Shown one piece after another: positions 44,802-61,827 of a stretch of 64,000 bases of DNA. Origin of the DNA: a virus. Lineage: Duplodnaviria; Caudoviricetes. Position 1 is the stretch's first letter. Every line of letters starts with the position of its first letter. A program made the translations under genes and the position numbers. The notes under the pieces were generated by a model. That model searched no databases. It had not been told where the DNA came from and worked only from the letters and a program-made list of their open reading frames with translations. Location of the stretch: positions 1 through 64,000 of the IMG/VR virus record IMGVR_UViG_2806310659_000001; one strand, given 5' to 3'.

Positions 44802-46048
44802 GCGACCTCTTTCAAGTTCAACGGCTCCGCAAGCATCAACTGCACAAAGTGCTGGCGCAGAACTTTGGCCACCAGCGAGAGCGCGCCATCGTCGTAGGCG
44901 TGGGTCAGCTCTCCCGAATAGACGGTGGGCCTGCGCTTCGTGGTACCGCACTGAAATTCACCGATGGTCCAGTCGTACGTGTACTCCCCGGCGTCGGTCA
45001 TGGGCTCGTCGCGACGGACGATAGCCACCTCGCCGATTTGGGTGGAGTTCACCATCAGCGGGAACCAGAGGGCCATTTACCTACCGAACGGAAACGGAAT
45101 CAGGCTCTTGATGCCACTCACCACAGAAGACACGATGGAGGTAACCGATCCGGTGACCGTCTGTCCGAGCGTGGTGATCACGTCATCGGCGCTCGCACTG
45201 ATGTCCTTGCTCAGCGTGTCAATGGTGTGACTGGCGGCCTCGTCGATACGGCCGGAAACCTCATCCGCCACCACATGGGCGAACTTTGCGAGGCGGGCGT
45301 CGAACCACGCATTGAACTTGTCCACTACTCCCCCTTGAGGAATGCCAACACCGGCAGAGGCTTGCGGTCGAACTTCCCGCGTGCCATGCGGGTCGGCGAG
45401 AATCCACCCGTCCGCGGCCGGCGGAATGTGCGACGCCGGCGGCTGCGCAAATGCTGGCCCCACTGGCTGATGAAGCGACGACGGGCGGCACGATTCGGGA
45501 TCGGCGTCCAAACGTCGTCGTCGGAGGGCTCGTATTCGATAAGGGCGTTCAGGCGGTCGCTATCGCTCTTGACTTCGGCGACAGTCACAGGGACTGCCCA
45601 CCGCTCGGTATCCCCGGCTCGACAACCACAATCATCGGAGGGGGCTCGATTGTCACGTCTTGGCCGTATTGTTCGCGGAGTGGCCTGTCCTGGCGGTCCT
45701 TGTATTCCTTCACCTGTTCCCCGGTTTCCTAAGTCCCATGTCCCTCGCCCACGAGCGTTTGGGCTTCCCGGGCTTAGGTTGTCCATACAGATTTGCCATC
45801 GTGGGCGCTTCCGTCATAGTGATGCGCAATTCCCACCGCGGGAAGCGATTCTCCCAGCGGAGGTGGTCGTACTTGCCATTGAGGGGGCGGTACTCCTGCT
45901 CAAGCTCGACGTTGTTGATGACGAATGACGTACCGCGAGCCTTGATAATCGAGGCATAGCCGTGGTGCTCCAGGTTGATGTAATCCCGAAGATCGCCGCA
46001 GGGCATGGCGTCGAGCATTTCCTGACAGGCGCGAGTTACGACGGGCAT
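44720..46048 (-). other. Small hypothetical ORFs (44720-45076, 45077-45325, 45325-45588 Arg-rich, 45710-46048)
   Basis: Packed short ORFs. Confidence 0.55.
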
Positions 46049-46842
46049 CAGACCGGCCGCAGCTCGGTTGTGTAGAGCATGCGCCTACCCTTGTTCCACT
46101 TGCCGCATGGGCAGAGATAACGCGGGTACTTGTACGAGGTTGTGTACTGGTAACCCCTGCGCTGCATCTCCGACTCGGGACGGCTGCACTGCGTGCAACG
46201 GATCTCGCCATCGCCGGCGGTGTCCTCGTACAGGGCGAAGTTCTCACCAATCCACGGCAGATCGTTCTCGAACAAATCCTCGGTGATCTTCACGTCGTGG
46301 ATGTTGTACTGCTTCATGGTCCGCTGTGCGGCGCGGCGGGTGGCCCGATTGCCGTAACGGATGTCGTCCCAGAGATCCGTGCCGCCGTGCTTGACCTTCT
46401 CGTCATGCAAGACGTGCCGGGCCGACCAGTTCAGGGACTGGCTCATCAGGCCGCGGGAGAAGTTCTTCTTGGAGATCTTCTTCAGGTCGATGCTGCGGTA
46501 GGGTGCCGGCCGGCGCCCCCAGAGGCGGCGGAACTCGGCCTGGAACCATTGCAGATCGAACACGTCGCCATTGAACGTAACGACGAAGTCAGCCTCGTCG
46601 AGCAGATCGAACGCCACTTGGAGCATGGCCTCGTACTGTTCGGGGATGACGTGGTAGTTTTCGTCTTCGTCCCAGGCGGCCTTGAAGATCGTCTTATCCT
46701 CGCCGCGCCACTTTGCGGCGAAGCAGAGAATGCGCGTCGGGACCAGGATTCGGTCCTCGTGAATGTAGTTGGAGAAGCGGTCGAAGACGCCGGCGATACC
46801 TCGCTGAGTCTCGATATCGACGGTGAGTATTTTCGCGGTCAA
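46048..46842 (-). CDS. DnaQ/RNase H-like 3'-5' exonuclease with C-terminal Zn ribbon
   Basis: VDIET, FNGDVFD, YNIHDV (Exo I/II/III); CTQC...CPCG. Confidence 0.85.
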   Translation of the reverse strand: MTAKILTVDIETQRGIAGVFDRFSNYIHEDRILVPTRILCFAAKWRGEDKTIFKAAWDEDENYHVIPEQYEAMLQVAFDLLDEADFVVTFNGDVFDLQWFQAEFRRLWGRRPAPYRSIDLKKISKKNFSRGLMSQSLNWSARHVLHDEKVKHGGTDLWDDIRYGNRATRRAAQRTMKQYNIHDVKITEDLFENDLPWIGENFALYEDTAGDGEIRCTQCSRPESEMQRRGYQYTTSYKYPRYLCPCGKWNKGRRMLYTTELRPV

Positions 46843-46854
46843 ACCGCTGTCCCC

Positions 46855-47373
46855 CTATTCCGGGATGATCTCGGTGAACGGCCCCGACTCGTCGTACTCG
46901 GTAAGGCACTCCCCGGCAAGGGTGCTGCCCCACCGCCAGTGGCCGTCAACATACGTCCAGGTATCACCGTCCGCGTCGATTACCTTGACATCGGTCGGAA
47001 CCTCAAGCATCGACCCCCAAACGCGCGGCTTGCGTTCGCCGGCGTCGTAGAGAAGGGCGAACTTGATATTTCCGGTGTCAAAATTCACACTAGTGAAGTC
47101 GAACTTCTTCGGCTCTGTCGCGATCTCCCCGCCAAGGGCGAGGTAGCCGGCGCCGTCGACCCAACTGTCCACATGGTCCGGAGAGGTGAGTAGTCGGGCG
47201 ACCTTGACCTGGTTCATGCAGAGGGCAACCTGCTCGGGTGTGACCGTGGTGCCCAAGATCGGCTCCCACAGCTTTCCGATGCGGGTGAAATTGTCCCGCA
47301 TGTTGCCGTACGCCTCTTCACGGTCACCGCAAATGAGCGATGCCGCGGTGGTCAGAATCTCGTCCTTCTTCAT
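46855..47373 (-). CDS. DUF6378-like protein with a C-terminal extra module
   Basis: GDREEAYG...NF.RI..LW...KVAR...DSWVDGAGY.ALGGE. Confidence 0.8.
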   Translation of the reverse strand: MKKDEILTTAASLICGDREEAYGNMRDNFTRIGKLWEPILGTTVTPEQVALCMNQVKVARLLTSPDHVDSWVDGAGYLALGGEIATEPKKFDFTSVNFDTGNIKFALLYDAGERKPRVWGSMLEVPTDVKVIDADGDTWTYVDGHWRWGSTLAGECLTEYDESGPFTEIIPE

Positions 47374-47852
47374 GCGTATTCCCCGCAGCCGTTGTGATGG
47401 GTGAAGTAGCGCCAGTGGACCCAGCCCTTCGGGCACCAGAAGCCCCACTCGCGGAGCTTGGGTCCGGTAATGATCAGGGTCCAGACCGGCTTTTCGCGGC
47501 CGGCGACATCGGGCAGGAGTTGTATCCGGTGAGTCCAATCGGCGGACCGATAGGCAATAGACCAGCGACTGCGCCACCGCAGACCGGTCACGCCAGAAGG
47601 GGCGGCCGGGTCGTCTACTGGAACGTGCTCCAGATACTCGCCCTTCAGGATCCAACTGAAGAACCACCAAGGGTGGTCATGCAACGCCCGGTCCTCGTCG
47701 GAGCGGAGGAACTTGTGAAGGTAAATTTTCAGGAGGCGGTTATGCGGGAGCACGAACCAGCGCAGCAGGTAAGGATCGTCTGCCTCGCCAATTACATCAT
47801 GCGGCTCGAACCGCAACCACTTCCGAAACCAATGATGGTTTTCGTTTGCCAC
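47370..47852 (-). CDS. Cupin-like hypothetical protein
   Basis: IYLHKFLRSDEDRALHDHPW...ILKGEY.E...HRIQL...REWGF. Confidence 0.7.
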   Translation of the reverse strand: MANENHHWFRKWLRFEPHDVIGEADDPYLLRWFVLPHNRLLKIYLHKFLRSDEDRALHDHPWWFFSWILKGEYLEHVPVDDPAAPSGVTGLRWRSRWSIAYRSADWTHRIQLLPDVAGREKPVWTLIITGPKLREWGFWCPKGWVHWRYFTHHNGCGEYA

Positions 47853-47873
47853 AAGTTCCCCTTTGTGGACGGA

Positions 47874-48101
47874 TTAAGAGAAGATCGCTTTCCAGAGGCG
47901 CTTACCGATCGGATCGGCCCACCACGGGAGCGAGTTGAGGAGGTGCAATGCAACCCCTGCAATGACCACCCGGGTCAGGATTGGGTGGGTCAATAGCCAT
48001 TCGTCGACAACGACGGAAAGTAGTTGGTCCTCTTCGCACGAGAACTCGTAGGCGATGATGCCCGCGGCCATGATTGCCCAGGCCTGCTTGCCGGTGATCA
48101 C
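47874..48101 (-). CDS. Small membrane protein
   Basis: AW..MAAGIIAYE...LLS..VD...ALHLLN..P.WADP. Confidence 0.7.
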   Translation of the reverse strand: MITGKQAWAIMAAGIIAYEFSCEEDQLLSVVVDEWLLTHPILTRVVIAGVALHLLNSLPWWADPIGKRLWKAIFS

Positions 48102-48295
48102 GAGACCAGCCAAGGGCGCGGGGCTCCGAAGATCAGCTCCCAAAACTCAGGTTCCGGGAGGGCCGTGTCGTCCTTGCGGGAAGCCATGCATACGCGACGG
48201 TCCCTGGTCTTGTCGGGCCACTGCCGGCGCCAGTGCGAGCCCCCCATCCACGATGGGCGTCCAGCTCCGCAGTCGGGGCAGGTTTCGGCGAACAT
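48098..48295 (-). CDS. Small Cys-containing protein
   Basis: ATG after AGGGAG; CPDCG. Confidence 0.55.
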   Translation of the reverse strand: MFAETCPDCGAGRPSWMGGSHWRRQWPDKTRDRRVCMASRKDDTALPEPEFWELIFGAPRPWLVS

Positions 48296-48315
48296 CGGTA
48301 CTCCCTGGATCGGGG

Positions 48316-48571
48316 GTTGCAAGTTGAGGCCGGCCCGTGGCGCGCGAACAGGGGCCGGCCGGGGCGCTTCGACCCGCGGGGAGCGCCCAGCCTGGAAGTT
48401 GGAAGGAGCCTTTTGGTAACCCGGTGACTCACGCAGGGTGGCGGCCACTCGACAGCCTCTCTGGGGCTGTTCGCCTGCACTCATCCGGGACCGCGGAGTT
48501 AAAGGGATAACCCACCACTAGCCGCGGGGTTCGGCGTTTTGTCAGGCGGAGCCGTTCCAAATCAACCGCCC
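48316..48571 (-). ncRNA. Unassigned structured RNA segment downstream of the mini-tmRNA
   Basis: Nested helices CCGCGG/CCGCGG, CCCGG/CCGGG, GUGCAGG/CCUGCGU, ACAGCC/GGCUGU, GGGCGCU/AGCGCCC, GGCCGGCCC/GGGCCGGCC; no credible ORF. Confidence 0.5.
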
Positions 48572-48572
48572 G

Positions 48573-48654
48573 TGGAGATGTTCGGTGCTGCCCCGAAGTC
48601 TTGCCTGGTGCCGCGTGCGGCTTTCGTCAGACAATCGAACCTGGTCGCATCCCC
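48573..48654 (-). ncRNA. Mini-tmRNA: tRNA-like domain only
   Basis: GGGGAUG/CAUCUCC-A acceptor stem (G3-U70, A73); 13-nt stemless D-loop ending UUCGA; helix UUGUCUG/CAGGCAA; GAC linker; T-arm UUCGG-GGCAGCA-CCGAA. Confidence 0.82.
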
Positions 48655-48665
48655 TAGTTTGGAAC

Positions 48666-49436
48666 CGGGCTGAGAATACACCCGTCCACAGTGACCTTTA
48701 CCGGATTATTGGTTCCCGGCTTTTCCACGTCATTCCTGAACGTAGTCACCACGCCCGGTCGGTTACGCCGACCACTCGTTACACCGAAAGCTACTCCGCG
48801 ACGTTTGTTTCACACTGGATTCGCGGGTCCAGCGCTGCACTACTTGTCTACGAACCACCGTCGCCTTGCGGGCTCGTGATGGCCCTGGTTCCGTAACGGC
48901 CAGGGATTAGAGGCGCTTTTGCTCCTCGGCGGGGGAAGAACTTTGGCTTGTTTCTGTTCTCAAAACAGGAAATGGTGAAATATAAGCAATTTCGTTCTAA
49001 CTAGAGACGTGCTTCCCCATGAAGGTCCGCACCCTTTTGAGGTACAGAATGCTTCACGCCTCTCGTGCTTCAGGCTGGCGACCTGTTTCGCACTCTACTC
49101 AGCCGTTCCCGAGCCGTCGCCCGTTACTAAGCGTTTTCATGGAACCCGCCCTTGCCCGCCAAGGCTTGGACTGAGACCCCCTCCGCACCACAAGGAGCTT
49201 GACCGATAGCCGTTTCTTCCCGCACGTACGGGTTGGTGGTCCCACTGGTTCACAGCCCTGGACCCTGGCGTATCTCGCCCCCTGGCAGCCCCCGAAGGAA
49301 CTGCTCAAGGATTGGATTGCATGGGGTACCCTCTCGGGCGGCAAGGTTGTCAGCCTCGCCTTTCAGCATCTTGCGATGCCTTATCCGCCATGCCGGAAAT
49401 GTGCCCGTTCAGTCGGTGGGCTAACCGATGCAATCC
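48666..49436 (-). ncRNA. GOLLD-like large non-coding RNA
   Basis: ~770 nt dense in GNRA/UUCG hairpins; motifs I recall from GOLLD (CUCAAAAGG, GUAACGAGUGG, terminal GUGUAUUCUCAGC); GGGGAAG/CUUCCCC long-range pairing. Confidence 0.8.
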
Positions 49437-49469
49437 TCACTATATGAACCGAAATCCTCGAATAGTGAA
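49437..49469 (-). promoter_or_regulatory. Putative promoter of the ncRNA cluster with overlapping inverted repeat
   Basis: TTCACT, 19 nt, TATAGT on the minus strand; inverted repeat TCACTAT (49437-49443) / ATAGTGA (49462-49468). Confidence 0.5.
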
Positions 49470-49633
49470 CATTGCATACGTTTACAGCTCGTTTGAGGCC
49501 TGTCCCTGCCTCACCCCGTGAGCCACGCGGGGGCCGTCCGTTCTGGACACCCTTCAGGACAATCAGGTGCTCTCTCGGTCACGGCAACCGCCACGTTTTC
49601 TCTGCGCAACGGCGAAACGTGGAAACCGGGTCT

Positions 49634-50002
49634 TTAGGTCTGCATCAGTTCGGTGAGCGATTCCCGCTCGCGCCTGACGCGCTCATACTCTTGCTCAACA
49701 TCCCTCGGCAGTGTTGGCCCCTGCGCGATGACGGGACGGCCCGACCAGACGAGGTTGTCTTTGTGGGGGTCCTTGCCGGCGCGGAACTTGACACGGTATC
49801 CGCGGCACATGGGATGGCCGTAGTAGGCGCGGGCCACAAGGTCGTGGACCATGCAGGTGGATTTACCGATGTCGACCTGGAGTGAGCCATTGGCAGCACG
49901 GCGCAGTTTCTTGAACCGGCGCCGGCGCTCGTCCCATATCCGGCCGTCTGGCGTTGCCCGGTAGCCGGCATAGCCGGGGATGGCGGCTAACTGCTCATCC
50001 AT
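49634..50002 (-). CDS. NUMOD4/HNH-like protein, probably degenerate
   Basis: IPGYAGY.AT.DGRI...VHDLVARAY.G...DNLVW. Confidence 0.65.
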   Translation of the reverse strand: MDEQLAAIPGYAGYRATPDGRIWDERRRRFKKLRRAANGSLQVDIGKSTCMVHDLVARAYYGHPMCRGYRVKFRAGKDPHKDNLVWSGRPVIAQGPTLPRDVEQEYERVRRERESLTELMQT

Positions 50003-50064
50003 ATTCGATTTTGGGTAGCAAGTCTCTACCTTCTAGTTAAGCATGCTTGAGCATTCTCACGGTT

Positions 50065-50700
50065 TCACTCGGAGTCGCCTATCGGCACCACCGCCGGGTA
50101 GCTCGTGTCCTCGTCCACATACCACTCGCCGGCGTCATAGTCGGCGTGGGCAAAGTCGTTCTGCGGCGCCTCCTCCAATGCCTGGAATATGGCGTCGTCC
50201 TCGGAATCGGCCTCAACCTCGACGACAGTTGAACCGACGAACTGGATACATACGCGGTACTTCATTCGCGACCCTTTTCAGTAACGGGACCATGGAACCT
50301 CAAACGGTTCCGTGTCCACCCCTTTGGACGCCCACACGAACACCTGCGTCCGATATAGCCAGCCGGTGTGAACCTCAATGCGCCCCCAGTCGGTTAGCAC
50401 CGCGGCAACGCGCGTTGGCTCGCGTAACCCTTGCCAGGCCTTGCGGGTGACCGTGAACCGCTCCTCGTGCCAGCCGTCCTTGTCGGACCATCTGATTACA
50501 AAAACGTAATCGGTGGGCCAGTCGGCGGGCATACCAGGGACTTTGACCTCGACCTGCCTCACCTCAACTTGGCGAATCGGTGGCCTTTTCACCACGATTT
50601 CCGATAGGTCGGCGTCATCCGGCAGGAAACAGGGCTCCATCTGCTCATACAAATTACAGCGCCACACAGTCCTACCTCCCCGCCCGATAGGCCAGGACAT
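50065..50700 (-). other. Two small hypothetical ORFs (50065-50265, 50278-50700)
   Basis: ORF packing; VEVEADSEDDAI. Confidence 0.55.
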
Positions 50701-51004: not shown

Positions 51005-51273
51005 GCCGCCAACACCCGCTGAAACAGCTCGATTACCTCATCCTCGGTGCGGTTGGGCTCACGCTCCCATTCCAGGACGGGCTCACCCAGCTCGTCGGAC
51101 AGGACGTTGAGGGCCTCGATATAGCCGTCGAACGCCTCCAGATTGGTCCATGCCAGCGTGGTCTCAGTGAGGGAGTCGTGGATGCACCACCCCACAGCGT
51201 AGGGGTCGACGATCCACGGCGGGCTCCAGCCGTCCTCCAGAAGGAGCTGGAGCGCCAACCTAACCGATCTCAT
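51001..51273 (-). CDS. Hypothetical protein
   Basis: Coupled ORF; W...P.RT.DEVIELF. Confidence 0.55.
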   Translation of the reverse strand: MRSVRLALQLLLEDGWSPPWIVDPYAVGWCIHDSLTETTLAWTNLEAFDGYIEALNVLSDELGEPVLEWEREPNRTEDEVIELFQRVLAA

Positions 51274-51955
51274 CGACGAATCCGATCTCCAGCGCCTCCG
51301 TGGCGCTCAGCCACCAATCCTTACGGGTCCAGCGCGTCCGGAACTCGTCGGCGGTGATCCTGCCGCCCGAGCGGGCCACGAAGATGTCGGCCACGCCGGC
51401 GCGGACCATCTGAATCCACTCCAGAGTGTCCTCGATCTCCCCTACCTTGCCGCGGGCGCCAGAGGCCGGCTCGTGCACGAGAAGATGGGCATGGCGGCCG
51501 ATCACGCGCCAATCGGCGGCCTGGAGCAGGATCGCGGCCATGCTGGCGGCGTAACCCCGAACCGTCATGGTAACGAAGTGGCTACCACCGCCGCGGGTCG
51601 AGTAGTTGTGGATCTCGTCGAACAAGTGCATCCCCTCCACCGTCGAACCGCCCGGGGAGTTGATGGTGATGTTCATCGGGCAGAACGGGTGCAGGCGGTC
51701 CCAAGCCTGGAGAGTGGTCAGGGCCTGGTAGACGTTGTCGATCCTCACCTCCCCGTAGAAGAGGTGATGGAATTGCAGGTAGTCCTGCGTCGTGGCCAGA
51801 TCCTCGGCGCGGCGACGCTCCGCCAAATAGATCTCCCGGATATCGGCGTCAGCCCTCTTCTCGCGGAGCTGCTCCCGGTAGAGGTCGGCCTCGGCCTCCA
51901 GATTGGCGATCAGCGCGGCCTCGTGGGCGGGGCTGACGGCGAGCTTGTCGTTCAC
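51260..51955 (-). CDS. ClpP-like protease
   Basis: INSPGG, AASMA (Ser), LVHEP (His), DWWLSATEALEIGFVDEI. Confidence 0.9.
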   Translation of the reverse strand: MNDKLAVSPAHEAALIANLEAEADLYREQLREKRADADIREIYLAERRRAEDLATTQDYLQFHHLFYGEVRIDNVYQALTTLQAWDRLHPFCPMNITINSPGGSTVEGMHLFDEIHNYSTRGGGSHFVTMTVRGYAASMAAILLQAADWRVIGRHAHLLVHEPASGARGKVGEIEDTLEWIQMVRAGVADIFVARSGGRITADEFRTRWTRKDWWLSATEALEIGFVDEIG

Positions 51956-52185: not shown

Positions 52186-52895
52186 GCTGCACTCTCCTGA
52201 AGGGCGGTTACATCTGCGAGGGTCAGACCGGTTTCGTATTTCCATTGGCGGTACTCGCGCAACTCCGCCGCCATCTTTCGTCGGTCCATCGTTACATGAC
52301 ACTTCCTACACATCGGCATGTAGAACTCGGGATAGAGCGAATACCGCATTAGTGAGCCAGAGCCCGACCCCTTACCAGGCCCCAATATCTCGGCCGGATC
52401 AGTCCCGTCATAAGCCCAGTCCTTAGCGTTTTCCCCGCACTCAATGCACCGGTAGCGGCTTGCAGGTCCCCATAATGTCCGAACCCTGACGTGCGCGGCG
52501 GTGAAGTCGCAAGGACTGGCCAGCGTATTGCGAATGGGCGCGTCAACGGAAAGCGACGTATCTCCGCGTGCGCGAGACCAATGCAATCGGCAATATCCGT
52601 GCGCCTTATGCTTTCGATCGCACCCCTCGATCCGGCATCCGCGATCAGGATCAAAGATCCTAAGCGGGCCGTCGATATCACACCCCTGGCGGAAGCGTTC
52701 GTAGTGGCCACGGCAGTAGCCCCTGACCGTGGACAGGCGGTCACACCCCTTGGCTGTGCACAGCTCGGGATAGTCGGGAACGCGATGTCGCTGGTTCATA
52801 TCAGCTCCGCGGCGCGCCCGCTGGTAATGAGCACTGCAATAGCCGAGCGATCGGACCTTGCGGTCGCACCAGTCCACTTTACAGATACTTGTCAC
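52182..52895 (-). CDS. Zn-finger-repeat HNH-like protein
   Basis: Three C-x4-C-x9-C-x2-H repeats, then CIECG...MCRKCH. Confidence 0.7.
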   Translation of the reverse strand: MTSICKVDWCDRKVRSLGYCSAHYQRARRGADMNQRHRVPDYPELCTAKGCDRLSTVRGYCRGHYERFRQGCDIDGPLRIFDPDRGCRIEGCDRKHKAHGYCRLHWSRARGDTSLSVDAPIRNTLASPCDFTAAHVRVRTLWGPASRYRCIECGENAKDWAYDGTDPAEILGPGKGSGSGSLMRYSLYPEFYMPMCRKCHVTMDRRKMAAELREYRQWKYETGLTLADVTALQESAA

Positions 52896-54214
52896 GCGAC
52901 CGATTCCATGTCCAGCTCGCCCCTGTCGAGCAGCTTCGTTTCGTGTTCGAGGAATACTTGTGACTTGGCCTTTAGCAAGACCGGAACCAGGCCCTCCTGA
53001 CGAATTACCACTCCCTCGTCGACCGTCTTGGGGTCGGATAGGGGAAGCACATCAGGATTGACCTCACCGTACAACTCGGCATAACTCCGGTCCATGAACG
53101 AGTCGACAATGTCGTCCGTGGTGTCACCGGTGGTGTCGTATTCCGGATCGAAGTCATGGATGAAACGGAACAATTCCGGTGTCCACTTCAGCCCGCGCTC
53201 CTGGCAAAACTGCTTAACGCCATCCCACGAGAGGTCGCTTAGGTGACCCTGTCGGTTGATGTGAGCGACGCGATAAACGTATAGTTCCGCTTCGTTCCGA
53301 GCCAAGTGATACGTGTAACCCCTTTGAAGAGGAGCACCGTCAGGCGTCCAGCCGATAAGCTCGCCATAGACAATGAATCCTTCCGGGATTAGGTTGGCAA
53401 CCCTCTTGCCGTATTCGGTCCAGAGGTCGAATTTGTAGAAATGCTCCTGGTTCGGGTTGTTCGGGTCCTTGATAACCTTTCGTGAGCCGAAAACCACGTC
53501 GTACTCCCACTCGGGGATGTTCACGCCGAGGCGCTTGAGCAGCTTCTCATACCACTTCAACTGGCGAAGGACCGGAACCCTCCCGCCACGCCAGGATGTC
53601 CCGTGGAGCTTCTGCGTGATGACCACTTCCCGGCCGGCGCGCAAGACGTGCCTGGAACGGAAGTAACTGTCAGTTTCGAGGTGCTCGGGAAAGACTTTCT
53701 TGTCCACGCGCTTAAACGCCCGCTCCACCTTCGACCTGGCGGGCTGGCCGGCCTTGCGGGGCAGCTCGTACTTCTTGCAGATCTCGTGGTCGCCGATCTT
53801 GTCGAACAGCACCACCGGGTGGCTTACGTCGGCCAGCTCGGCACGCAGCTTGTCGATGTCCAGGCCGGTGTAGGCCAGGGACTCCAGCGGCATGAGGAGT
53901 GCGTTGGAGCGGTGCCCGCGGAGTTTCAGCGCCTTGATGCGGCGGTTGTCCTCCAGGTAACCCGTCTCGCCCTCGTCCTTGTTCAGGTCGGCATGGCGGA
54001 ACAGGTTGTTCTGGTGGGCGTAGTCGTCGCTCAGTTGCGTTTCCGCGGTGAACAGCACGCGGAGTTCCCCGGCCTCAATCCCCCGCTGTGTGAGGGCCTG
54101 GTGACCGAGAATGGGGATGCCGACAAGGTTGTCCAGCCCGGGCAGGTCCACCGGGGCGGGAACACGGACGATGGTGGCCGCGTAGTTGACGTTGGCCGGC
54201 TGGTCGAATTTCAT
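52892..54214 (-). CDS. RNA ligase (Rnl2-like)
   Basis: TQKLHGTS motif I, VYGEL, EGVVIR, LKAKS; N-terminal LKLRGHRS. Confidence 0.85.
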   Translation of the reverse strand: MKFDQPANVNYAATIVRVPAPVDLPGLDNLVGIPILGHQALTQRGIEAGELRVLFTAETQLSDDYAHQNNLFRHADLNKDEGETGYLEDNRRIKALKLRGHRSNALLMPLESLAYTGLDIDKLRAELADVSHPVVLFDKIGDHEICKKYELPRKAGQPARSKVERAFKRVDKKVFPEHLETDSYFRSRHVLRAGREVVITQKLHGTSWRGGRVPVLRQLKWYEKLLKRLGVNIPEWEYDVVFGSRKVIKDPNNPNQEHFYKFDLWTEYGKRVANLIPEGFIVYGELIGWTPDGAPLQRGYTYHLARNEAELYVYRVAHINRQGHLSDLSWDGVKQFCQERGLKWTPELFRFIHDFDPEYDTTGDTTDDIVDSFMDRSYAELYGEVNPDVLPLSDPKTVDEGVVIRQEGLVPVLLKAKSQVFLEHETKLLDRGELDMESVA

Positions 54215-57374: not shown

Positions 57375-58808
57375 TCAGAGCAGGTTTTCGTTTATCTTTG
57401 GCTCCGATATTTGGGCCAGGAACCACGCCGTAGGAACGCTTCCGCCCTGTCCGCCACGGTGCCCGTCGACTTTCGTCAAGACCCCTCGCTTGACGAGCTT
57501 GTCGAGCTGCCGCTGCGCCTTCTTGCACTGCGCATCAGTGGGGCGGGGGGTGTCGTACAACTGCTTGGCAGCCTCCTTGGCGGTCAGCCCGTCCGGGCCG
57601 GCGCCGTTGACCGCTTTCGTGAAGTCGAACTTCACCACCTCCATCCGCCCCTCCTCGGGGAAGTAGTGGAGATGCCAGGGACCCACCTCGTTGGCGGGCT
57701 GCTTGACGTGGTGGAACCTCACCACCAGATCACCCGGGTCGCCGGTCAACTGAATGACCGAGCCGGCCCCAGAGGTCAGCCACGTCGAGCCGAACACGTC
57801 GTTGATCCCGACCGGTCCGTTCTGCGGGTTGGCCTTCCTGTTGTGGTGCAGCTCGCAGATCTGCACGCCGCGTGCCAGCAGTGCTTGTCTGGCCCGGTTG
57901 TAGGCCGCGGCCGTGGCGTCCTCGGACAGCCCCACCACCGCGTCCTTGAGCGAGTCCACGTACACCGTGCCGGCGCCAGCCTCCAGCGCCATCCTTGCCA
58001 GCAGGGATGGGTCCACTGCCAGGTCGGAGATGGGCGGACCGGGGCGGAACAGTAGCCGGCCCGTAACTCCTGCCATCTCCTCGGCATCGAACTGCCGTCT
58101 CATCGAGCGGCGGATCTGTCGTGGGCGGTCCATCGCCAGGTACAGGATGGGTCTCTCGGAGCAGGCGATAGGCAGACCGAGGACCGTGCTGTCGAGCCCG
58201 AGCTGTCCGCGGACGAGCATCCCGGCGAGGGTGGTCTTACCCAGCCCCATACCGCCGGCGATCATCAGTGCCTCGCCCTCGGCCCAGAGGATGTCATCGC
58301 CGTCGCCCCACACGATCACGCTGCGATCGTCGGCACCGAACATCCACTCCGCGCCGTCAACGGGAGGGAAGTTTCCCCAGACATCGATTGCTGGAGCGGA
58401 ATCGCCTTCCACTGGCCGCTGGGGACCTCCCCCGATAGATGACACCGGCGAGGGCGTAGCGGCGCGCTCAGGGACCATGCGGGCGCCGACCTTCGCATCG
58501 GCCCCGGCGAAGCCCGAACGAATGGTGGCCTCGATCTCATGGTCGTCCAGGCCGGCATTGCGGGCGGCTAGTGTGAGAGTGTCCTCGACGGTATGTTTGT
58601 CGATGGCCCCGGCGTTAATCAGGCCCCCCATATTGAACGCTGCTACGTTCAGGGTGTGATTGCGCACCCCTTCCGGGGCCACCTCCACATTGCGCGCCTC
58701 TAACTGGAGGGCTGCCGCGGCGTAGGCGTTGTTCGGGGCGACCGGGTTGGCGATCTTCCTGGGCTCGGGCTTGGGCTGTTCAACGCGCTGAAGGAAGCCG
58801 GTAGTCAA
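57375..58808 (-). CDS. RepA/AAA_25-type DNA helicase with N-terminal PriCT-like domain
   Basis: GVRNHTLNVAAF; GGMGLGKTT Walker A; VYVDSL; LHHNRK. Confidence 0.88.
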   Translation of the reverse strand: MTTGFLQRVEQPKPEPRKIANPVAPNNAYAAAALQLEARNVEVAPEGVRNHTLNVAAFNMGGLINAGAIDKHTVEDTLTLAARNAGLDDHEIEATIRSGFAGADAKVGARMVPERAATPSPVSSIGGGPQRPVEGDSAPAIDVWGNFPPVDGAEWMFGADDRSVIVWGDGDDILWAEGEALMIAGGMGLGKTTLAGMLVRGQLGLDSTVLGLPIACSERPILYLAMDRPRQIRRSMRRQFDAEEMAGVTGRLLFRPGPPISDLAVDPSLLARMALEAGAGTVYVDSLKDAVVGLSEDATAAAYNRARQALLARGVQICELHHNRKANPQNGPVGINDVFGSTWLTSGAGSVIQLTGDPGDLVVRFHHVKQPANEVGPWHLHYFPEEGRMEVVKFDFTKAVNGAGPDGLTAKEAAKQLYDTPRPTDAQCKKAQRQLDKLVKRGVLTKVDGHRGGQGGSVPTAWFLAQISEPKINENLL

Positions 58809-60297
58809 GTCCCTCCTCCAGTACGCGCTGCACGTCCTCGAATGTCTGCCAGCTCAGGAACTGGCCGTCCTGCCAGACGGGCTGGAGCAGGCTTCGTCGT
58901 TCCGCAGACTCGCCGGCCTCCTGAACCAGGACGAGGCCCCCGCCAAAGGCATTCGCCCGGCGTCCTACCGCGAGCCGGCCGGTAGCACTCGTCTTGGTGC
59001 CGTCATCGGTGATCGGGTCCTTCTTGAGGTTCACGCCCTCGCCGTCGACCTCCGCCCAGGTGGCTTTCATCGCCGAACCGAACGTGTCGCGGGTCTGGTA
59101 CTGGTAGCTGAACGAGCCCACGCCGAACACCACGTTGGTCGAGGCGTAGCACAGTTGCCGCATCCTCTCGGTGATCGAGCGGGCGCGGTCGAGCGTGATC
59201 GAGTCGCCGTAGATGGCGCCGACGTGCGAGTCCAGTTCGATGAAGCCTCGGGCGTTCTTGTGCCCGCCGAAGGTGTTGTAGAGCAGGTTCAGCACGCCCC
59301 ACCACTCGTGGGACATGTATGGCGCCTGCGGGTTACCACAGAGGATCTTCTCCGGGTCGCCCGAGTCGGGGCGGATCACCAGCTTGCCCTCACGTGTGAG
59401 GATCTTGTTCTTCAGCGCCGGCAGGTAGGTGGCCAGCACACGCCACAGGTCGAACGTGTCGGACACGATCGAGACCGTCCCCTTGGGGTACAGGTCCAGC
59501 AGACGGTTGATCGTCTCCAGCTCCCCCACGGTGGCGATTCCGGTGCACATGACCGAGTGCTCGGTGGCCGGGACCGACTGGGCGGAGTAGAACCCGCCGT
59601 AGTAGCGGTCGATCCAGTCCAGGGAGACCAGGGAGTCGGTGCCGAAGAATGACAGCAGGTGGCCGGCGCCCGACGCCGCGGCGGACTCGTGCGAAGACAT
59701 CCCCCGGTAGGAGAAGTCGTGGCACTGGTAGTTCACGGCCGAAGGGGCGGCGCCGGTCAGCTTGGCCGCCTCCTCCAGGATCTTGCGATACTCACGGGCG
59801 ATCGTCGCCGAGGTGGACGCCTGCCAGATGCCGGCCGACAGCCCGGTCTCGACGAAGTTTGTCAGCCAGAAGAACCGCGGGTCGGTGTTCTCCACCGTGA
59901 AGGACGGGATGCCGATCGGAACCGGCGTGCCCTCGGGGATCGAGCAGAACCGCAGGGGCAGGTACCCCAGCTTCCATAGCTCCCGAACGTGCTCCGAACC
60001 GATCGACTCGGCGGCCGGGATACCGAGCACCTGCGCGATGCGCCCCTCGTAGAGGTCGCACACCTCGTCCACATCCGACTCGAAGAACGGCTCCCACTCC
60101 TCCATCAGGTACTTGCGGAGGTAGGCCTGCAATCCGAAGTGGACCACGTGGTTGACGCCGGGTATGCGCGACTTGCGGTTGGTGTAGTTGGAGTAGACGC
60201 GGGTGACGTTGCCGCTCAGTTGGTATTGCCGAAGATGGTCCAGCTTGTAGGCGTCAGTGCGAAACAGGGGGGCAACTGGCTCGTAGAGCGTGTTCAC
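58780..60297 (-). CDS. Nicotinamide phosphoribosyltransferase-like protein (Namat/NadV family)
   Basis: TDAYKLDH, HDFSYRG, SVPATEHSVM, SIVSDTFD, VIRPDSGDP, IYGDSIT, TRDTFG.A.KAT. Confidence 0.93.
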   Translation of the reverse strand: MNTLYEPVAPLFRTDAYKLDHLRQYQLSGNVTRVYSNYTNRKSRIPGVNHVVHFGLQAYLRKYLMEEWEPFFESDVDEVCDLYEGRIAQVLGIPAAESIGSEHVRELWKLGYLPLRFCSIPEGTPVPIGIPSFTVENTDPRFFWLTNFVETGLSAGIWQASTSATIAREYRKILEEAAKLTGAAPSAVNYQCHDFSYRGMSSHESAAASGAGHLLSFFGTDSLVSLDWIDRYYGGFYSAQSVPATEHSVMCTGIATVGELETINRLLDLYPKGTVSIVSDTFDLWRVLATYLPALKNKILTREGKLVIRPDSGDPEKILCGNPQAPYMSHEWWGVLNLLYNTFGGHKNARGFIELDSHVGAIYGDSITLDRARSITERMRQLCYASTNVVFGVGSFSYQYQTRDTFGSAMKATWAEVDGEGVNLKKDPITDDGTKTSATGRLAVGRRANAFGGGLVLVQEAGESAERRSLLQPVWQDGQFLSWQTFEDVQRVLEEGLDYRLPSAR

Positions 60298-61141
60298 TGA
60301 AGTCCTTCACGTGTTGAAGCATGTACGTTTCGGTCGGCACGATCACCGTGGCCACGCCCACCCTGTTGTGCCCGGGGTGGGAGTCGGTGGTGTAGATGTG
60401 CCGGTAGTGCTCGCGCAGGTCATAGGCGCGACCGGAAAAGATCCCGTGCGTCACCCATAGGCCGAGCTGGTCGCGATGCAGGCCGGTCTCTTTTGCCAGG
60501 CCCATGAACGTCCCGCCGCCGTCGCAGATGTCGTCGACCACCAGGTAGCGACCGTGCCGCGGGAGGTGGTCTTTCATCTCGATGCCGAGGATCTTCCCGG
60601 TATCGAACTCGCGGACCTTCTCCGCGCGGTAGAAATCGAGCCCCAGCTCGTGGGCCGCCGTGTAGGCGCGCTGAGCGGCACCCTTGTCAGGTGAGATCAC
60701 ACCGTCGTACCGCTCCCGGTGATCGGCGTCCTGTAGCGCTCGTAGCAGCAGGGGGAACGGATCTAGCTGCGTCAGGTTTCGCAGGTAGCGACCAATCATC
60801 GGCGAGTGTGCATCGATGCCGATAACCTGCTGCGGGTTCATGGAGTTGATCAGCTCCGCATACACTCTGGCGCCTTCCGGCTCGCCGCGGTCAGCCCGGG
60901 CGGCCGGCAAGTAGGGCAGCATCAGAACGAACGGCATCTGCCGCTGGTGGGCGACGTTGGCCCACAGTGCCGCCTTGACGAGATCATCGGCACTTGCCCC
61001 GCGGACATCGGCCACCCACACTGCCGCGGCTCCCACGCTCGGCAGGTCGCGCAGATGGTGCTCGCCGCCAGGGAAGGTGAACGAATCGCCCACACCTTTG
61101 AGGTAGCCGTTGGGGGTGTGTAAGCGGAGGTGGACGGTCAT
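60254..61141 (-). CDS. Ribose-phosphate pyrophosphokinase-like protein (Adps/Prs family)
   Basis: FPGGE, PYLPAARADR, DAHS, SPDKGA, VVDDICDGGGTF, VTHGIFS. Confidence 0.92.
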   Translation of the reverse strand: MTVHLRLHTPNGYLKGVGDSFTFPGGEHHLRDLPSVGAAAVWVADVRGASADDLVKAALWANVAHQRQMPFVLMLPYLPAARADRGEPEGARVYAELINSMNPQQVIGIDAHSPMIGRYLRNLTQLDPFPLLLRALQDADHRERYDGVISPDKGAAQRAYTAAHELGLDFYRAEKVREFDTGKILGIEMKDHLPRHGRYLVVDDICDGGGTFMGLAKETGLHRDQLGLWVTHGIFSGRAYDLREHYRHIYTTDSHPGHNRVGVATVIVPTETYMLQHVKDFSEHALRASCPPVSH

Positions 61142-61827
61142 GCGGACTTCCTGATCTCGGGTGAGGGTTGGATGAGCCACGAGTAACGCCGATCGCCGAT
61201 CGCCGATGGCGGGGCGCACACGTAACCGCCGGCGCCGCGGTAGTCGATGCCCGGCTTAACACCCGCGCGGTTGCCGTCGCCCGTGGGCGAGACGTAGTAA
61301 TGAGTCCCTCTTGGGGTGTCCACCTTGCCGTGGACATCTGGCAATGCATCGGGTCCAAGTTGGGCCAGTGATGCCACCCCGGTCGGTCCGTCGATGTCGA
61401 TCACGTCGAACATCACTCCCGTGGCCAGACCGATGTTGGAGTCGGGCATATCGGTCCACCATCTACGGACCTGGTCTGGGTCCAATGTTGCGTCCTTGAA
61501 ACCGCGGGTGTGCGGGTAGGGCTTCTTGCCATCACCGAGGAAGTCGGGCCGCCTCGGATCGGTGTAGCCAACGGGTGCGAGCGGGAAGACCGGCCAGCCC
61601 TGTTTGGCGTACCAGAGGGCGGACGGACCCAGCTTGGCGGGACGGTCGTGCTTGTCGATCTCCGCCTGGAGTCGATTAGCCTCGGTTACGTCGTCACGCT
61701 GAGCGGCGTCACACCACTGCTGAGTTAGGGTGAACACCTCCGTGGGCTTGCACGTCGGGTGAGACGTTTGGCCCACGAAGGTGACCTCCATGACGCCGGC
61801 GCAGTCCGAACAGGTCGAGTAGAACAT
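61138..61827 (-). CDS. Bifunctional primase/polymerase (Prim-Pol) domain protein
   Basis: WPVFPL...GFKDAT.D...WW...NIGLATG...VIDID...TPRGTHYY...DYRG.GGYV.APPS. Confidence 0.9.
   Translation of the reverse strand: MFYSTCSDCAGVMEVTFVGQTSHPTCKPTEVFTLTQQWCDAAQRDDVTEANRLQAEIDKHDRPAKLGPSALWYAKQGWPVFPLAPVGYTDPRRPDFLGDGKKPYPHTRGFKDATLDPDQVRRWWTDMPDSNIGLATGVMFDVIDIDGPTGVASLAQLGPDALPDVHGKVDTPRGTHYYVSPTGDGNRAGVKPGIDYRGAGGYVCAPPSAIGDRRYSWLIQPSPEIRKSA

What the first reader, a model, noticed from the sequence alone, without database searches (positions are those of the whole stretch)
48573..48654. 82-nt tmRNA reduced to its tRNA-like domain
Seen: GGGGAUG CGACCAGGUUCGA UUGUCUG ACGAAA GCCG-CACG-CGGC AC CAGGCAA GAC UUCGG-GGCAGCA-CCGAA CAUCUCC A. 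It has the G3-U70/A73 alanine identity, a stemless 13-nt D-loop ending UUCGA, helix 2a and the GAC linker. The whole mRNA/pseudoknot region is replaced by a 20-nt insert, and CCA is not encoded. The T-loop resembles the GGCAGUA loop of alphaproteobacterial tmRNAs rather than UUCRANY. Established: this domain binds SmpB and is alanylated. From memory, a similarly reduced tmRNA was noted in mycobacteriophage DS6A (verify). Inference: an SmpB sponge blocking trans-translation, or tag-free ribosome rescue with no anticodon loop for anticodon nucleases to cut.
Basis: partly seen in the sequence, partly recalled or inferred. Interest (0 to 1): 0.85.

Follow-up and report, generated by a model that had tools for sequence, protein, structure and literature searches.

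The report
Prophage mini-tmRNA next to GOLLD RNA
A prophage encodes an 82-base RNA that keeps only the alanine-accepting, tRNA-like end of the bacterial ribosome-rescue RNA (tmRNA); it belongs to a little-noticed but widespread phage family and here sits directly behind a giant GOLLD RNA.

Summary
On the minus strand, 48654..48573 folds exactly as described, with no tag frame, no pseudoknots and no encoded CCA. It is homologous to the published "TLD only" tmRNA of mycobacteriophage DS6A: the two share the 20-nt insert almost letter for letter, while all helices differ by compensating changes. A covariance model built from 51 relatives without the window scores it 75.2 bits; nothing else in the 12 sources searched with that model exceeds 30.

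I found the family in well over 100 viral contigs, in Streptomyces phages where it is unannotated, and in 3 bacterial genomes. G1-C72, G2-C71 and G3.U70 are invariant (51 of 51).

The window's copy belongs to a subclass with a GGCRGYA T-loop and a matching D-loop change. Rfam and ARAGORN miss this subclass.

The element starts 12 nt after a GOLLD RNA, in the slot where mycobacterial GOLLDs normally carry a tRNA. No other copy examined lies next to GOLLD.

Function was not tested here. The best reading is a processed, alanylated RNA that binds SmpB and competes with host tmRNA. The sponge idea is already in print for DS6A. It is a new variant of a known kind, of moderate to high interest.

The parts
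48573..48654 (-). Gene for the 82-nt TLD-only mini-tmRNA, from acceptor 5' end G at 48654 to discriminator A at 48573
   Evidence: Sequence. Fold. Leave-one-out model R2: 75.2 bits. Alignment with DS6A.
48648..48654 (-). Acceptor stem, 5' strand. It pairs with 48574-48580 and carries G1-C72, G2-C71 and G3.U70.
   Evidence: Sequence. These three pairs are invariant in 51 of 51 relatives, while pairs 4-7 covary.
48635..48647 (-). Stemless tmRNA-type D-loop ending UUCGA, with A-G at the two positions where members with a canonical T-loop have G-G
   Evidence: A-G is present in 22 of 23 unique members with a GGCRGYA T-loop.
48628..48634 (-). Helix 2a, 5' strand. It pairs with 48601-48607.
   Evidence: All 7 pairs of this helix show changes on both sides across the family. 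My structural filter did not require this helix, but A4 and A6 were aligned to a model that holds it.
48608..48627 (-). 20-nt cap that replaces the mRNA-like and pseudoknot domains: a 6-nt purine-rich bulge, a 4-bp hairpin with a CACG loop, then AC
   Evidence: 18 of 20 positions are identical to DS6A, and the 2 differences form a compensating pair change. In a scan that did not specify the cap, the same hairpin core occurs in 28 of 87 members and other small hairpins in 59.
48598..48600 (-). GAC linker between helix 2a and the T arm
   Evidence: Sequence. G-A-C is conserved in the family alignment. PMC1168896 describes the tandem G.A pairs of this region in tmRNA.
48581..48597 (-). T arm: 5-bp stem and 7-nt loop GGCAGCA (non-canonical)
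   Evidence: Sequence. The T stem covaries. The GGCRGYA loop recurs in 23 unique members, window included.
48574..48580 (-). Acceptor stem, 3' strand. Discriminator A is at 48573, followed by CGG (no encoded CCA).
   Evidence: Sequence. The host tmRNA gene also lacks an encoded CCA.
48655..48666 (-). 12-nt spacer between the GOLLD 3' end and the mini-tmRNA. It would be the 5' leader removed by RNase P.
   Evidence: The comparable spacers are 8-10 nt in 8 other mycobacterial GOLLD loci.
48667..49064 (-). GOLLD RNA (Rfam RF02032), full model match, with no tRNA embedded in its linker
   Evidence: 215.6 bits against a gathering score of 150. No tRNA in the window.
49634..50002 (-). HNH endonuclease gene upstream of GOLLD. 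This neighbour is also reported for mycobacterial tRNA-array/GOLLD islands.
   Evidence: phrog_959, E 1.8e-12. PMC6582537 passages. Rey and Nanosmite annotation.
52892..54214 (-). RNA ligase gene 4 kb upstream on the same strand. It is context rather than a proven partner.
   Evidence: PF09414, E 9e-12. phrog_968, E 1.3e-117. RNA ligase genes also lie near the homologues in Streptomyces phages LuckySocke and BRock.

Best explanation
The element is a functional gene for a 'TLD-only' mini-tmRNA of the kind first noted in mycobacteriophage DS6A.

Inferred pathway, not shown here:
1. It is transcribed on the minus strand together with, or just after, the GOLLD RNA.
2. Host RNase P cuts at G48654, which would also free the GOLLD 3' end.
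3. The 3' end is trimmed and CCA is added, as must happen for the host's own tmRNA.
4. Host AlaRS charges it with alanine through G3.U70, A73 and G2-C71.
5. Host SmpB binds its elbow.

The Ala-RNA/SmpB/EF-Tu complex then competes with host tmRNA for SmpB and for ribosomes stalled on broken mRNAs. Because there is no tag reading frame, the nascent chain gets at most alanine(s) and not the host degradation tag. During phage growth, ribosome rescue is therefore either blocked or uncoupled from tagging. Which of the two happens is open.

The short capped helix 2a plays the part of a tRNA long variable arm. The unusual T-loop is matched by a D-loop change that should preserve the elbow.
For: Shown here:
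- It is homologous to the DS6A element. The cap is identical at 18 of 20 positions and all four helices differ by compensating changes.
- It scores 75.2 bits with a model built without it.
- Covariation supports all four helices.
- The full alanine identity set (G1-C72, G2-C71, G3.U70, A73) is invariant in 51 of 51 relatives, while stem pairs 4-7 vary freely. A scan that did not constrain the acceptor stem gave GGG...UCC-A in 86 of 87. This argues that charging is under selection.
- The tmRNA-specific D-loop and GAC linker are kept.
- The D-loop A-G goes with the GGC T-loop in 22 of 23 members, and G-G goes with UUC in 25 of 27 canonical members of the less-biased set. This argues that the elbow, which is the SmpB site, is under selection.
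- 18 of 22 other members pass Rfam's own tmRNA threshold as roughly 80-nt matches spanning both model ends.
- The host has one smpB and a normal tmRNA without an encoded CCA.
- None of 5 cultured phages carrying the RNA encodes SmpB, so host SmpB must be used.

From papers (passages only):
- SmpB binds the TLD elbow, and helix 2 mimics a long variable arm (PMC3968760).
- A TLD fragment with SmpB supports alanine polymerisation without mRNA in vitro (PMC3929946).
- DS6A's TLD-only form is reported to inhibit the endogenous tmRNA in E. coli (PMC11915505; PMC4131195).
Against: - Nothing about expression, processing, charging or SmpB binding was measured.
- The consensus scan found no terminator-like site on the minus strand in 47800-50400. 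Its single promoter-like match lies inside GOLLD and is no more than the shuffles give.
- The window's T-loop departs from the canonical loop at three of seven positions. Neither the Rfam tmRNA model nor ARAGORN recognises the element, so binding to host factors is less certain than for canonical members.
- In this host I found only two RF-1-domain proteins and no ArfB-like one. Simple blockade of trans-translation might therefore hurt phage translation as well.
- The position directly behind GOLLD fits a different, cis-acting role (see rivals).
- Several scans specified parts of the motif, so counts of conservation for those parts are biased. This applies to the cap, to UCCA, and to the G-G D-loop with the canonical T-loop.
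Confidence: 0.6

Rival explanations
1. GOLLD handle. The element's main job here is in cis. It is the tRNA-shaped structure that mycobacterial GOLLD RNAs carry at their 3' end. It would serve either as the RNase P (and RNase Z-type) processing signal that defines the GOLLD 3' end, or as an appendage that stays attached to GOLLD. Any effect on SmpB would be secondary.
For: - The element starts 12 nt after the GOLLD model's last base.
- Of 10 other mycobacterial GOLLD loci, 8 have a called tRNA starting 8-10 nt after GOLLD. One (Reindeer) has an uncalled tRNA-like element there, and one (L015) has nothing.
- Several of these slot elements look unfit for decoding. Three reach only 33-34 bits, matching tRNA-model positions 9-63. 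Three fall below Rfam's tRNA threshold. Their folds show 3- to 5-nt 'anticodon' loops.
- The window has no true tRNA at all, yet the slot is filled.
- Kretsch et al. (bioRxiv 10.1101/2024.12.08.627333, passages) draw tRNAs covalently linked to GOLLD cages.
Against: - The family exists without GOLLD. None of 39 other TLD-only loci examined with Rfam has a GOLLD within the fetched flanks. DS6A has none in its whole genome.
- A scan for the GOLLD-end/TLD-start junction gave 71 pattern hits, none of them a TLD.
- A mere processing handle would need neither the alanine identity set nor the tmRNA-type D-loop and cap, and all of these are intact here.
- The two roles are not exclusive.
Confidence: 0.15
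2. Non-ribosomal use. The RNA works outside ribosome rescue. It could be a decoy or competitor for host nucleases that act on tRNA or tmRNA (RNase R, anticodon nucleases, accessory nucleases of CRISPR type III). Alternatively it could be a dedicated alanine donor for a tRNA-dependent transferase.
For: - It lies in a gene block with an RNA ligase. RNA ligase genes also neighbour the homologues in LuckySocke and BRock, and DS6A encodes an RtcB-like ligase. Family members often sit in phage tRNA arrays.
- PMC11662646 (passages) reports that an anti-CRISPR protein co-purifies with fragments of tRNAs and of tmRNA about 90 nt long, and that these RNAs bind RNase R.
- The lack of an anticodon loop would make the RNA immune to anticodon nucleases.
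Against: - No conserved protein partner was found. The recurrent neighbours are replication genes: exonuclease, helicase, primase, endonuclease VII and deaminase.
- The features that are conserved are the TLD features that reviews tie to SmpB binding (the D-loop/T-loop elbow) and to tmRNA structure (the G.A pairs next to the GAC linker). They do not look like those of a generic decoy.
Confidence: 0.15
3. Relic. The element is an inactive remnant of a phage tmRNA or tRNA-Ala gene left by an internal deletion.
For: - Rfam and ARAGORN do not call it.
- The T-loop is non-canonical.
- No expression data exist.
- The rest of the usual tRNA array is missing from this prophage.
Against: - All 23 pairs are intact.
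- The cap matches DS6A, and a model built without the element scores it 75.2 bits.
- The T-loop variant recurs in 22 other unique sequences with the matching D-loop change. That is not the pattern of decay.
Confidence: 0.05
4. Y RNA. The element is the tRNA-like module of a bacterial Y RNA (YrlA type) that works with a Ro60/Rsr protein.
For: - YrlA RNAs mimic tRNA, occur in mycobacteria and mycobacteriophages, and the M. smegmatis one is cut by RNase P and receives CCA (PMC4201824, passages).
- Streptomyces phage Riptide has a Ro-like protein gene about 2 kb from its TLD-only element.
Against: - There is no TROVE/Ro60 domain anywhere in the 5.0-Mb genome.
- No Rfam family other than GOLLD matches at E below 0.6 in 48400-49700.
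- The element has a free acceptor end with alanine identity rather than a Ro-binding stem.
Confidence: 0.02

Closest known systems
TLD-only tmRNA of mycobacteriophage DS6A (JN698994 28478-28557; 'Mycobacterium phage DS6A (TLD only)' in Hudson, Lau and Williams 2014, PMC4131195; 'Phage__Mycobacterium.9' in PMC11915505)
   Same: The architecture and length are the same (80 nt against 82). Both have G3.U70, A73, a tmRNA-type D-loop, a short helix 2a and no tag frame. The cap is the same at 18 of 20 positions. Neither encodes CCA.
   Different: The window's T-loop is GGCAGCA with A-G in the D-loop, whereas DS6A has the canonical UUCGAUU. DS6A scores 43.2 bits with Rfam's tmRNA model, while the window gets no match. 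DS6A has no GOLLD, and its element lies between gp33 and a DNA polymerase III gene. The window's copy lies directly behind GOLLD in a prophage.
Full-length tmRNA (Rfam RF00023), including the host's own and those of cluster M and cluster C mycobacteriophages
   Same: The tRNA-like domain is shared: an acceptor stem with G3.U70, a stemless D-loop ending (U)UCGA, the start of helix 2a, the GAC linker and a T arm. The host copy likewise lacks an encoded CCA.
   Different: The element has no mRNA-like domain, tag frame or pseudoknots. It measures 82 nt against 353-376 nt and falls below every Rfam threshold.
Mitochondrial tmRNA of jakobids (Reclinomonas americana) and other CDS-less organellar tmRNAs
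   Same: These are natural tmRNAs that lost the tag frame. In the Reclinomonas RNA the two T-loop uridines are replaced by two guanines, as here (PMC1168896; PMC11915505).
   Different: They are organellar, of alphaproteobacterial two-piece descent and 189 nt long. There is no Rfam mt-tmRNA or alpha_tmRNA match to the window. I did not compare the sequences directly.
Synthetic TLD fragments used for SmpB co-crystals and in vitro assays
   Same: The design is the same: the 5' and 3' ends of tmRNA joined by a short capped helix 2a. The reviews report that such fragments bind SmpB and support alanine polymerisation without mRNA (PMC3929946).
   Different: They are laboratory constructs with a UUCG cap. 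The natural family has its own conserved purine-rich bulge and hairpin.
tRNAs attached to GOLLD RNAs in mycobacterial tRNA arrays (PMC6582537; Morgado et al. 2020, seen only as a reference title; Kretsch et al. bioRxiv 10.1101/2024.12.08.627333)
   Same: It occupies the same slot, 8-12 nt after the GOLLD 3' end, with an HNH endonuclease gene nearby.
   Different: Here the slot holds a tmRNA-derived element rather than a tRNA. There is no tRNA array and no tRNA in the GOLLD linker.
MALAT1/mascRNA-type tRNA-like 3' processing signals of long non-coding RNAs (recalled from memory, no call)
   Same: A tRNA-like structure directly downstream of a large structured RNA could let RNase P create that RNA's 3' end.
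   Different: That system is eukaryotic. This is an analogy only and was not tested.

Membership tests
TLD-only (mini) tmRNA, DS6A type | 7-bp acceptor stem with G1-C72, G2-C71 and G3.U70, and discriminator A | tested here: met
   Sequence. The same set is invariant in 51 of 51 relatives.
TLD-only (mini) tmRNA, DS6A type | Stemless tmRNA-type D-loop ending (U)UCGA, and a G-A-C linker before the T arm | tested here: met
TLD-only (mini) tmRNA, DS6A type | Helix 2a closed by a short cap (purine-rich bulge plus small hairpin) in place of the mRNA-like and pseudoknot domains | tested here: met
   The cap is identical to DS6A at 18 of 20 positions. Helix 2a covaries at 7 of 7 pairs.
TLD-only (mini) tmRNA, DS6A type | Significant score with a covariance model of the family built without the candidate | tested here: met
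   R2: 75.2 bits, rough E 2.3e-17. The next best hits, tRNAs and tmRNA ends, score at most 29.8 bits.
TLD-only (mini) tmRNA, DS6A type | Canonical T-loop (UUCGANU) | tested here: not met
   The loop is GGCAGCA. This is not unique: 23 unique sequences, window included, have GGCRGYA, and 22 of them have the co-varying D-loop A-G. I therefore treat it as a subclass and not as an exclusion.
TLD-only (mini) tmRNA, DS6A type | Processed by RNase P, receives CCA, is charged with alanine, binds SmpB and inhibits or alters trans-translation | not testable with these tools
   No RNA data could be found. The experimental claim exists only for DS6A, as cited in PMC11915505 and PMC4131195. I did not see the primary paper, Mao et al. 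2009.
tmRNA (Rfam RF00023) | Score at or above the Rfam gathering threshold (47 bits) | tested here: not met
   No match at E <= 10, and the element is not among the whole-genome tmRNA-model matches. 18 of 22 other family members do pass, at 49.6-75 bits.
tmRNA (Rfam RF00023) | mRNA-like domain with a tag reading frame and stop codon, plus pseudoknots | tested here: not met
   Only 20 nt lie between the two strands of helix 2a. ARAGORN finds no tag peptide.
tRNA (tRNA-Ala) | D stem, and an anticodon arm with a 7-nt loop | tested here: not met
   No ARAGORN call and no Rfam tRNA match at E <= 10. The arm in that position is helix 2a with a 4-nt loop.
GOLLD-linked tRNA slot | A tRNA-shaped element starting about 8-12 nt after the GOLLD 3' end on the same strand | tested here: met
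   The spacer is 12 nt. It is 8-10 nt in 8 of 10 other loci, a tRNA-like element fills the slot in a ninth, and the tenth has none.
Bacterial Y RNA (YrlA) | A Ro60/Rsr (TROVE) protein encoded nearby, and a Ro-binding stem | tested here: not met
   No TROVE domain in the whole genome. Nothing near significance apart from GOLLD in 48400-49700.
Two-piece alphaproteobacterial or mitochondrial tmRNA | Match to Rfam alpha_tmRNA or mt-tmRNA, and a permuted two-piece gene | tested here: not met
   No match at E <= 10. The only resemblance is the G-G start of the T-loop (PMC1168896).

The most novel reading that the evidence does not exclude
GOLLD and the mini-tmRNA form one functional unit. Mycobacterial GOLLD RNAs would need a tRNA-shaped 3' appendage that need not decode. 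In this prophage that appendage is an alanine-accepting, SmpB-binding TLD. A GOLLD assembly, or its precursor, would then carry or release many copies of a ribosome-rescue mimic, linking the still function-less GOLLD nanocage to stalled ribosomes and trans-translation.

A second bold reading that is also not excluded: with SmpB, the RNA adds template-free alanine tails to stalled chains in vivo.
Probability: 0.15. Interest if true: 0.85.

Novelty: new variant of a known kind. Interest (0 to 1): 0.6.

Why it matters
In the library I searched, TLD-only tmRNAs appear as a curiosity of one mycobacteriophage and a few organelles.

This window and the searches it prompted show three things:
- They form a sizeable phage family with a conserved cap and an invariant alanine identity.
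- One whole subclass, with a GGCRGYA T-loop, goes unseen by ARAGORN and falls below Rfam's tmRNA threshold wherever I tested them.
- Copies in cultured Streptomyces phages are unannotated.

If these RNAs divert or block SmpB-dependent rescue, they are a common phage tactic against a host quality-control pathway. I found no ArfB-type back-up for that pathway in this host.

The placement directly behind GOLLD also offers a concrete experimental handle on GOLLD. Its structure is now known but its function is not. One can ask whether its 3' tRNA-like neighbour is needed for its maturation or activity.

Tried and rejected
- Megablast of 48400-49700 against phage records found no match. Distant BLAST of the element alone gave only chance-level hits at E about 4.
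- Folding energy alone is not significant.
- Expression: no RNA holder was listed for the region, and I did not lay reads.
- Earlier findings of this scan were not open.
- Conserved protein partner: an all-against-all comparison of ORFs within 5 kb of 24 family members found only replication-type neighbours and phage-lineage synteny.
- Phage-encoded SmpB: none in 5 cultured phages and none in the window, since the only smpB lies on contig C3.
- Prophage-encoded release factor, ArfB or peptidyl-tRNA hydrolase: none in the window.
- Y RNA reading: rejected because the genome has no TROVE protein.
- Recurrence of the GOLLD-TLD junction: 71 pattern hits in viral contigs, 0 of them real.
- Bacterial genomes: of 72 pattern hits, only 3 are family members. 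In 150 other genomes of the genus, model R1 found none, but only 30 candidates per genome were scored.
- Chance matches: L021 (read by eye; no R1 match) and L102 and L130 (no R1 match).
- Script error: the D-loop counter used a wrong offset. I recomputed it.
- Not run: the metagenome scan, structure prediction and complex prediction, because no protein question arose.
- A 9-base identity between helix 2a's 3' strand and the host tmRNA's first pseudoknot region is probably chance, because other members differ there.
Full report
**1. What is there**

The feature is therefore on the minus strand, which is the strand of almost all genes of this prophage region.

It has these parts:
- a 7-bp acceptor stem with G3.U70 and discriminator A;
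- a 13-nt D-loop ending UUCGA;
- a 7-bp helix 2a;
- a 20-nt cap: a 6-nt purine-rich bulge, a 4-bp hairpin with a CACG loop, then AC;
- a GAC linker;
- a 5-bp T stem with the 7-nt loop GGCAGCA.

CGG follows the discriminator, so no CCA is encoded. RNAfold reproduces the four helices, but the energy is unremarkable (z = -1.14). ARAGORN finds no tRNA or tmRNA anywhere in the window. Rfam gives no tmRNA or tRNA match even at E <= 10.

**2.

Rfam finds a full-length GOLLD RNA at 48667-49064 on the minus strand, at 215.6 bits against a gathering score of 150. The element begins 12 nt after the last GOLLD base.

The window is part of contig C44 of a 5.0-Mb, 94-contig genome. The host tmRNA is of a normal one-piece type. 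I read its tag by eye as ADSHQRDYALAA, and it also has no encoded CCA. There is one smpB.

Genes upstream on the same strand:
- an HNH endonuclease (49634-50002);
- a ClpP-like protease (51260-51955);
- an RNA ligase (52892-54214);
- a helicase (57375-58808);
- a nicotinamide phosphoribosyltransferase (58780-60297) and a ribose-phosphate pyrophosphokinase (60254-61219).

Genes downstream:
- a DUF7427 protein (47874-48143);
- a DUF6378 protein (46855-47670);
- an exonuclease-like protein (46048-46842).

**3. Homology to DS6A**

Hudson, Lau and Williams 2014 (PMC4131195, passages) list 'Mycobacterium phage DS6A (TLD only)'. [quoted passage not shown]

I located the element at JN698994 28478-28560. 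It scores 43.2 bits with Rfam's tmRNA model, below the threshold of 47, and it is unannotated in the record.

Aligned with the window, the cap is identical at 18 of 20 positions, and the two differences form one compensating pair change. The acceptor, helix 2a and T stems differ at many positions but stay paired.

**4. The family**

Pattern scans of IMG/VR, filtered by structure and by a covariance model seeded with four sequences (R1), gave:
- 24 matches in 98 sources;
- 9 more strong matches in 48 further sources, whose scores duplicate those of matches, except L127 and L134.

tRNAs and full tmRNAs score at most 23.7 bits there.

Further members:
- Streptomyces phages LuckySocke, BRock, Shaeky and Riptide. 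All are unannotated at that spot and lie inside tRNA arrays. BLAST also hits GiJojo, pSt2308 and Alone3, which I did not check further.
- 3 of 72 pattern hits in bacterial genomes: a Nocardioidaceae MAG, a Pseudonocardia and a Sideroxyarcus MAG.

- Of 90 unique sequences, 87 have a perfect 7-bp acceptor stem.
- 86 of those 87 have the form GGG...UCC-A.
- 28 of the 87 carry the same hairpin core as the window. The other 59 carry other small hairpins, which in the printed list usually follow a purine-rich bulge.

Within the genus, R1 found the element only in the window's own genome, 1 of 151, with only 30 candidates scored per genome.

**5. Structure support**

On 51 relatives without the window (alignment A6):
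- 95.8% of cells pair, against 66.1% in shuffles and at most 48.5% when partners are slid.
- 19 of 23 pairs change on both sides.
- Helix 2a changes on both sides at 7 of 7 pairs. My structural filter never required this helix.
- G1-C72, G2-C71 and G3.U70 are each 51 of 51.

The alignment was fitted to the model's structure, and some scans fixed UCCA, so these figures lean somewhat towards the structure. The acceptor-free scan gives the same picture.

A model built from A6 (R2) scores the window's element 75.2 bits, rough E 2.3e-17, with the next best hits at or below 29.8 bits.

**6. The odd T-loop is a subclass**

Rfam's tmRNA model passes 18 of 22 other members at 49.6-75 bits. The four it misses include all three with a GGCRGYA T-loop.

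A scan for that loop found 62 loci. It yields 23 unique sequences with intact acceptor stems, the window among them. 22 of the 23 have A-G at the two D-loop positions. At those positions, in the set where neither the D-loop nor the T-loop was fixed by the search, 25 of 27 members with a canonical T-loop have G-G.

None of 17 loci of this subclass gets an Rfam tmRNA hit at the gathering score.

In tRNA terms, which I take from recalled textbook knowledge, these D-loop bases contact T-loop positions 55 and 56. The joint change therefore suggests that the elbow is preserved. The elbow is where SmpB binds (PMC3968760).

PMC1168896 reports the same UU-to-GG change in the tag-less Reclinomonas mitochondrial tmRNA, and a U-to-G change in Caulobacter.

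One contig (L272) carries one copy of each class.

**7. The GOLLD slot**

The other GOLLD loci were found by BLAST and Rfam. GOLLD-like DNA occurs in 32 phage records, all from Mycobacterium phages, and in 4 of 400 genus genomes, own included.

In 10 other mycobacterial GOLLD loci (Rfam):
- 8 have a called tRNA starting 8-10 nt after GOLLD;
- Reindeer has an uncalled tRNA-like element there, with a 3-bp, 4-nt-loop stub in place of the anticodon arm;
- one genomic locus (L015) has none.

Of the nine slot elements, only three score above 50 bits as tRNA. Three score 33-34 bits and match only model positions 9-63. Three fall below Rfam's threshold.

The slot therefore seems to need a tRNA shape more than a decoder, and in this tRNA-free prophage the mini-tmRNA fills it.

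Against a GOLLD-specific role:
- none of 39 other TLD-only loci has a GOLLD in the fetched flanks;
- DS6A has none in its whole genome;
- a junction-pattern scan found none.

**8. Mechanism**

Established from reviews, of which I read passages only:
- tmRNA is cut by RNase P, charged by AlaRS and bound at the elbow by SmpB, and helix 2 mimics a long variable arm (PMC3968760).
- A TLD fragment with SmpB supports polyalanine synthesis without mRNA in vitro (PMC3929946).
- The DS6A form is reported to inhibit the endogenous tmRNA in E. coli (PMC11915505, citing Mao et al. 2009, which I did not see).

Shown here:
- The alanine identity set and the elbow are under strong constraint.
- Five cultured phages with the RNA encode no SmpB.
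- The host has a single smpB, two RF-1-domain proteins and no ArfB-like protein.

Inferred: the RNA is matured and charged by host enzymes, and it competes with host tmRNA for SmpB and stalled ribosomes.

The invariant charging identity argues for action on the ribosome rather than passive titration alone. Whether the outcome is blockade, tag-free rescue or alanine tailing cannot be decided from sequence.

**9. Novelty and limits**

I found no description of the wider family, the cap module, the T-loop subclass or the GOLLD adjacency. My searches were in the held library. Only DS6A, jakobid and plastid cases surfaced.

Supplements are closed, the tmRNA database itself is not searchable here and subscription papers are missing, so prior description cannot be excluded.

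The kind is known (DS6A: a 2009 study seen only as a citation, and papers of 2014 and 2025). This copy is a new variant in a new context.

Noticed in passing
window 48667-49064 (-): There is a full-length GOLLD RNA (215.6 bits) in a prophage that has no tRNA genes at all, and no tRNA in the GOLLD linker. In the 7 Mycobacterium phage records and 1 genus genome (L014) where I looked at the surroundings, the other GOLLDs sit inside tRNA arrays, and 6 of the 10 I examined carry a tRNA in the linker.
   Followed up: partly
L153 (Mycobacterium phage Reindeer) about 1142-1209; L003 2952-3024 (Rey); L151 1140-1211 (PegLeg); L002 2905-2985 (Nanosmite): The tRNA-like element directly behind GOLLD in cluster M phages is often aberrant. 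Reindeer's is unannotated and has a 3-bp, 4-nt-loop stub for an anticodon arm. Rey's 'tRNA-Ala' matches only the core of the tRNA model. PegLeg's 'tRNA-Gln' is not among the Rfam tRNA matches at gathering score, and Nanosmite's is annotated as undetermined.
   Followed up: partly
window 58780-60297 (-) and 60254-61219 (-): The prophage encodes a nicotinamide phosphoribosyltransferase (phrog_448, E 2.4e-176) next to a ribose-phosphate pyrophosphokinase (phrog_619). This is an NAD-salvage pair of a kind I recall being linked to phage counter-defence (recalled, not checked).
   Followed up: no
window 51260-51955 (-): A ClpP-family protease gene (Pfam CLP_protease, E 2.6e-23; PHROG 'head maturation protease') lies in the early, non-structural gene block, far from the capsid and tail genes at about 5-36 kb. 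I did not check whether it is the capsid protease or a separate enzyme.
   Followed up: no
window 52892-54214 (-); L229 4179-5078; L230 4534-5058; L018 49300-50000: RNA ligase genes recur in genomes that carry TLD-only RNAs: an Rnl-type ligase in the window, in LuckySocke and in BRock, and an RtcB-like ligase in DS6A. I made no statistical test of the association.
   Followed up: no
L229 2501-2578, L230 2491-2568, L231 2491-2569, L232 2477-2553: Cultured Streptomyces phages LuckySocke, BRock, Shaeky and Riptide carry TLD-only mini-tmRNAs that are not annotated in their GenBank records. In GiJojo the matching stretch is annotated as a hypothetical protein gene.
   Followed up: partly
L272 5-81 and 1317-1392: One viral contig encodes two mini-tmRNAs about 1.2 kb apart, one with the GGCAGUA T-loop and one with a canonical T-loop.
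   Followed up: no
L070 10221-10616: ARAGORN calls a 396-nt tmRNA with an implausible 24-residue tag. Its end coincides with an 80-nt TLD-only element, so the call looks like an over-extension.
   Followed up: no
L106 2012-2114: Two bases after a TLD-only element lies a second, weaker match to the model (37.6 bits, 103 nt). In the pair counts it appears to be the one row with A-U instead of G.U at pair 3-70. Its nature is unknown.
   Followed up: no
L232 1-335 (Streptomyces phage Riptide): A Ro-like RNA-binding protein gene lies about 2 kb upstream of that phage's mini-tmRNA. The window's genome has no Ro60 homologue.
   Followed up: partly
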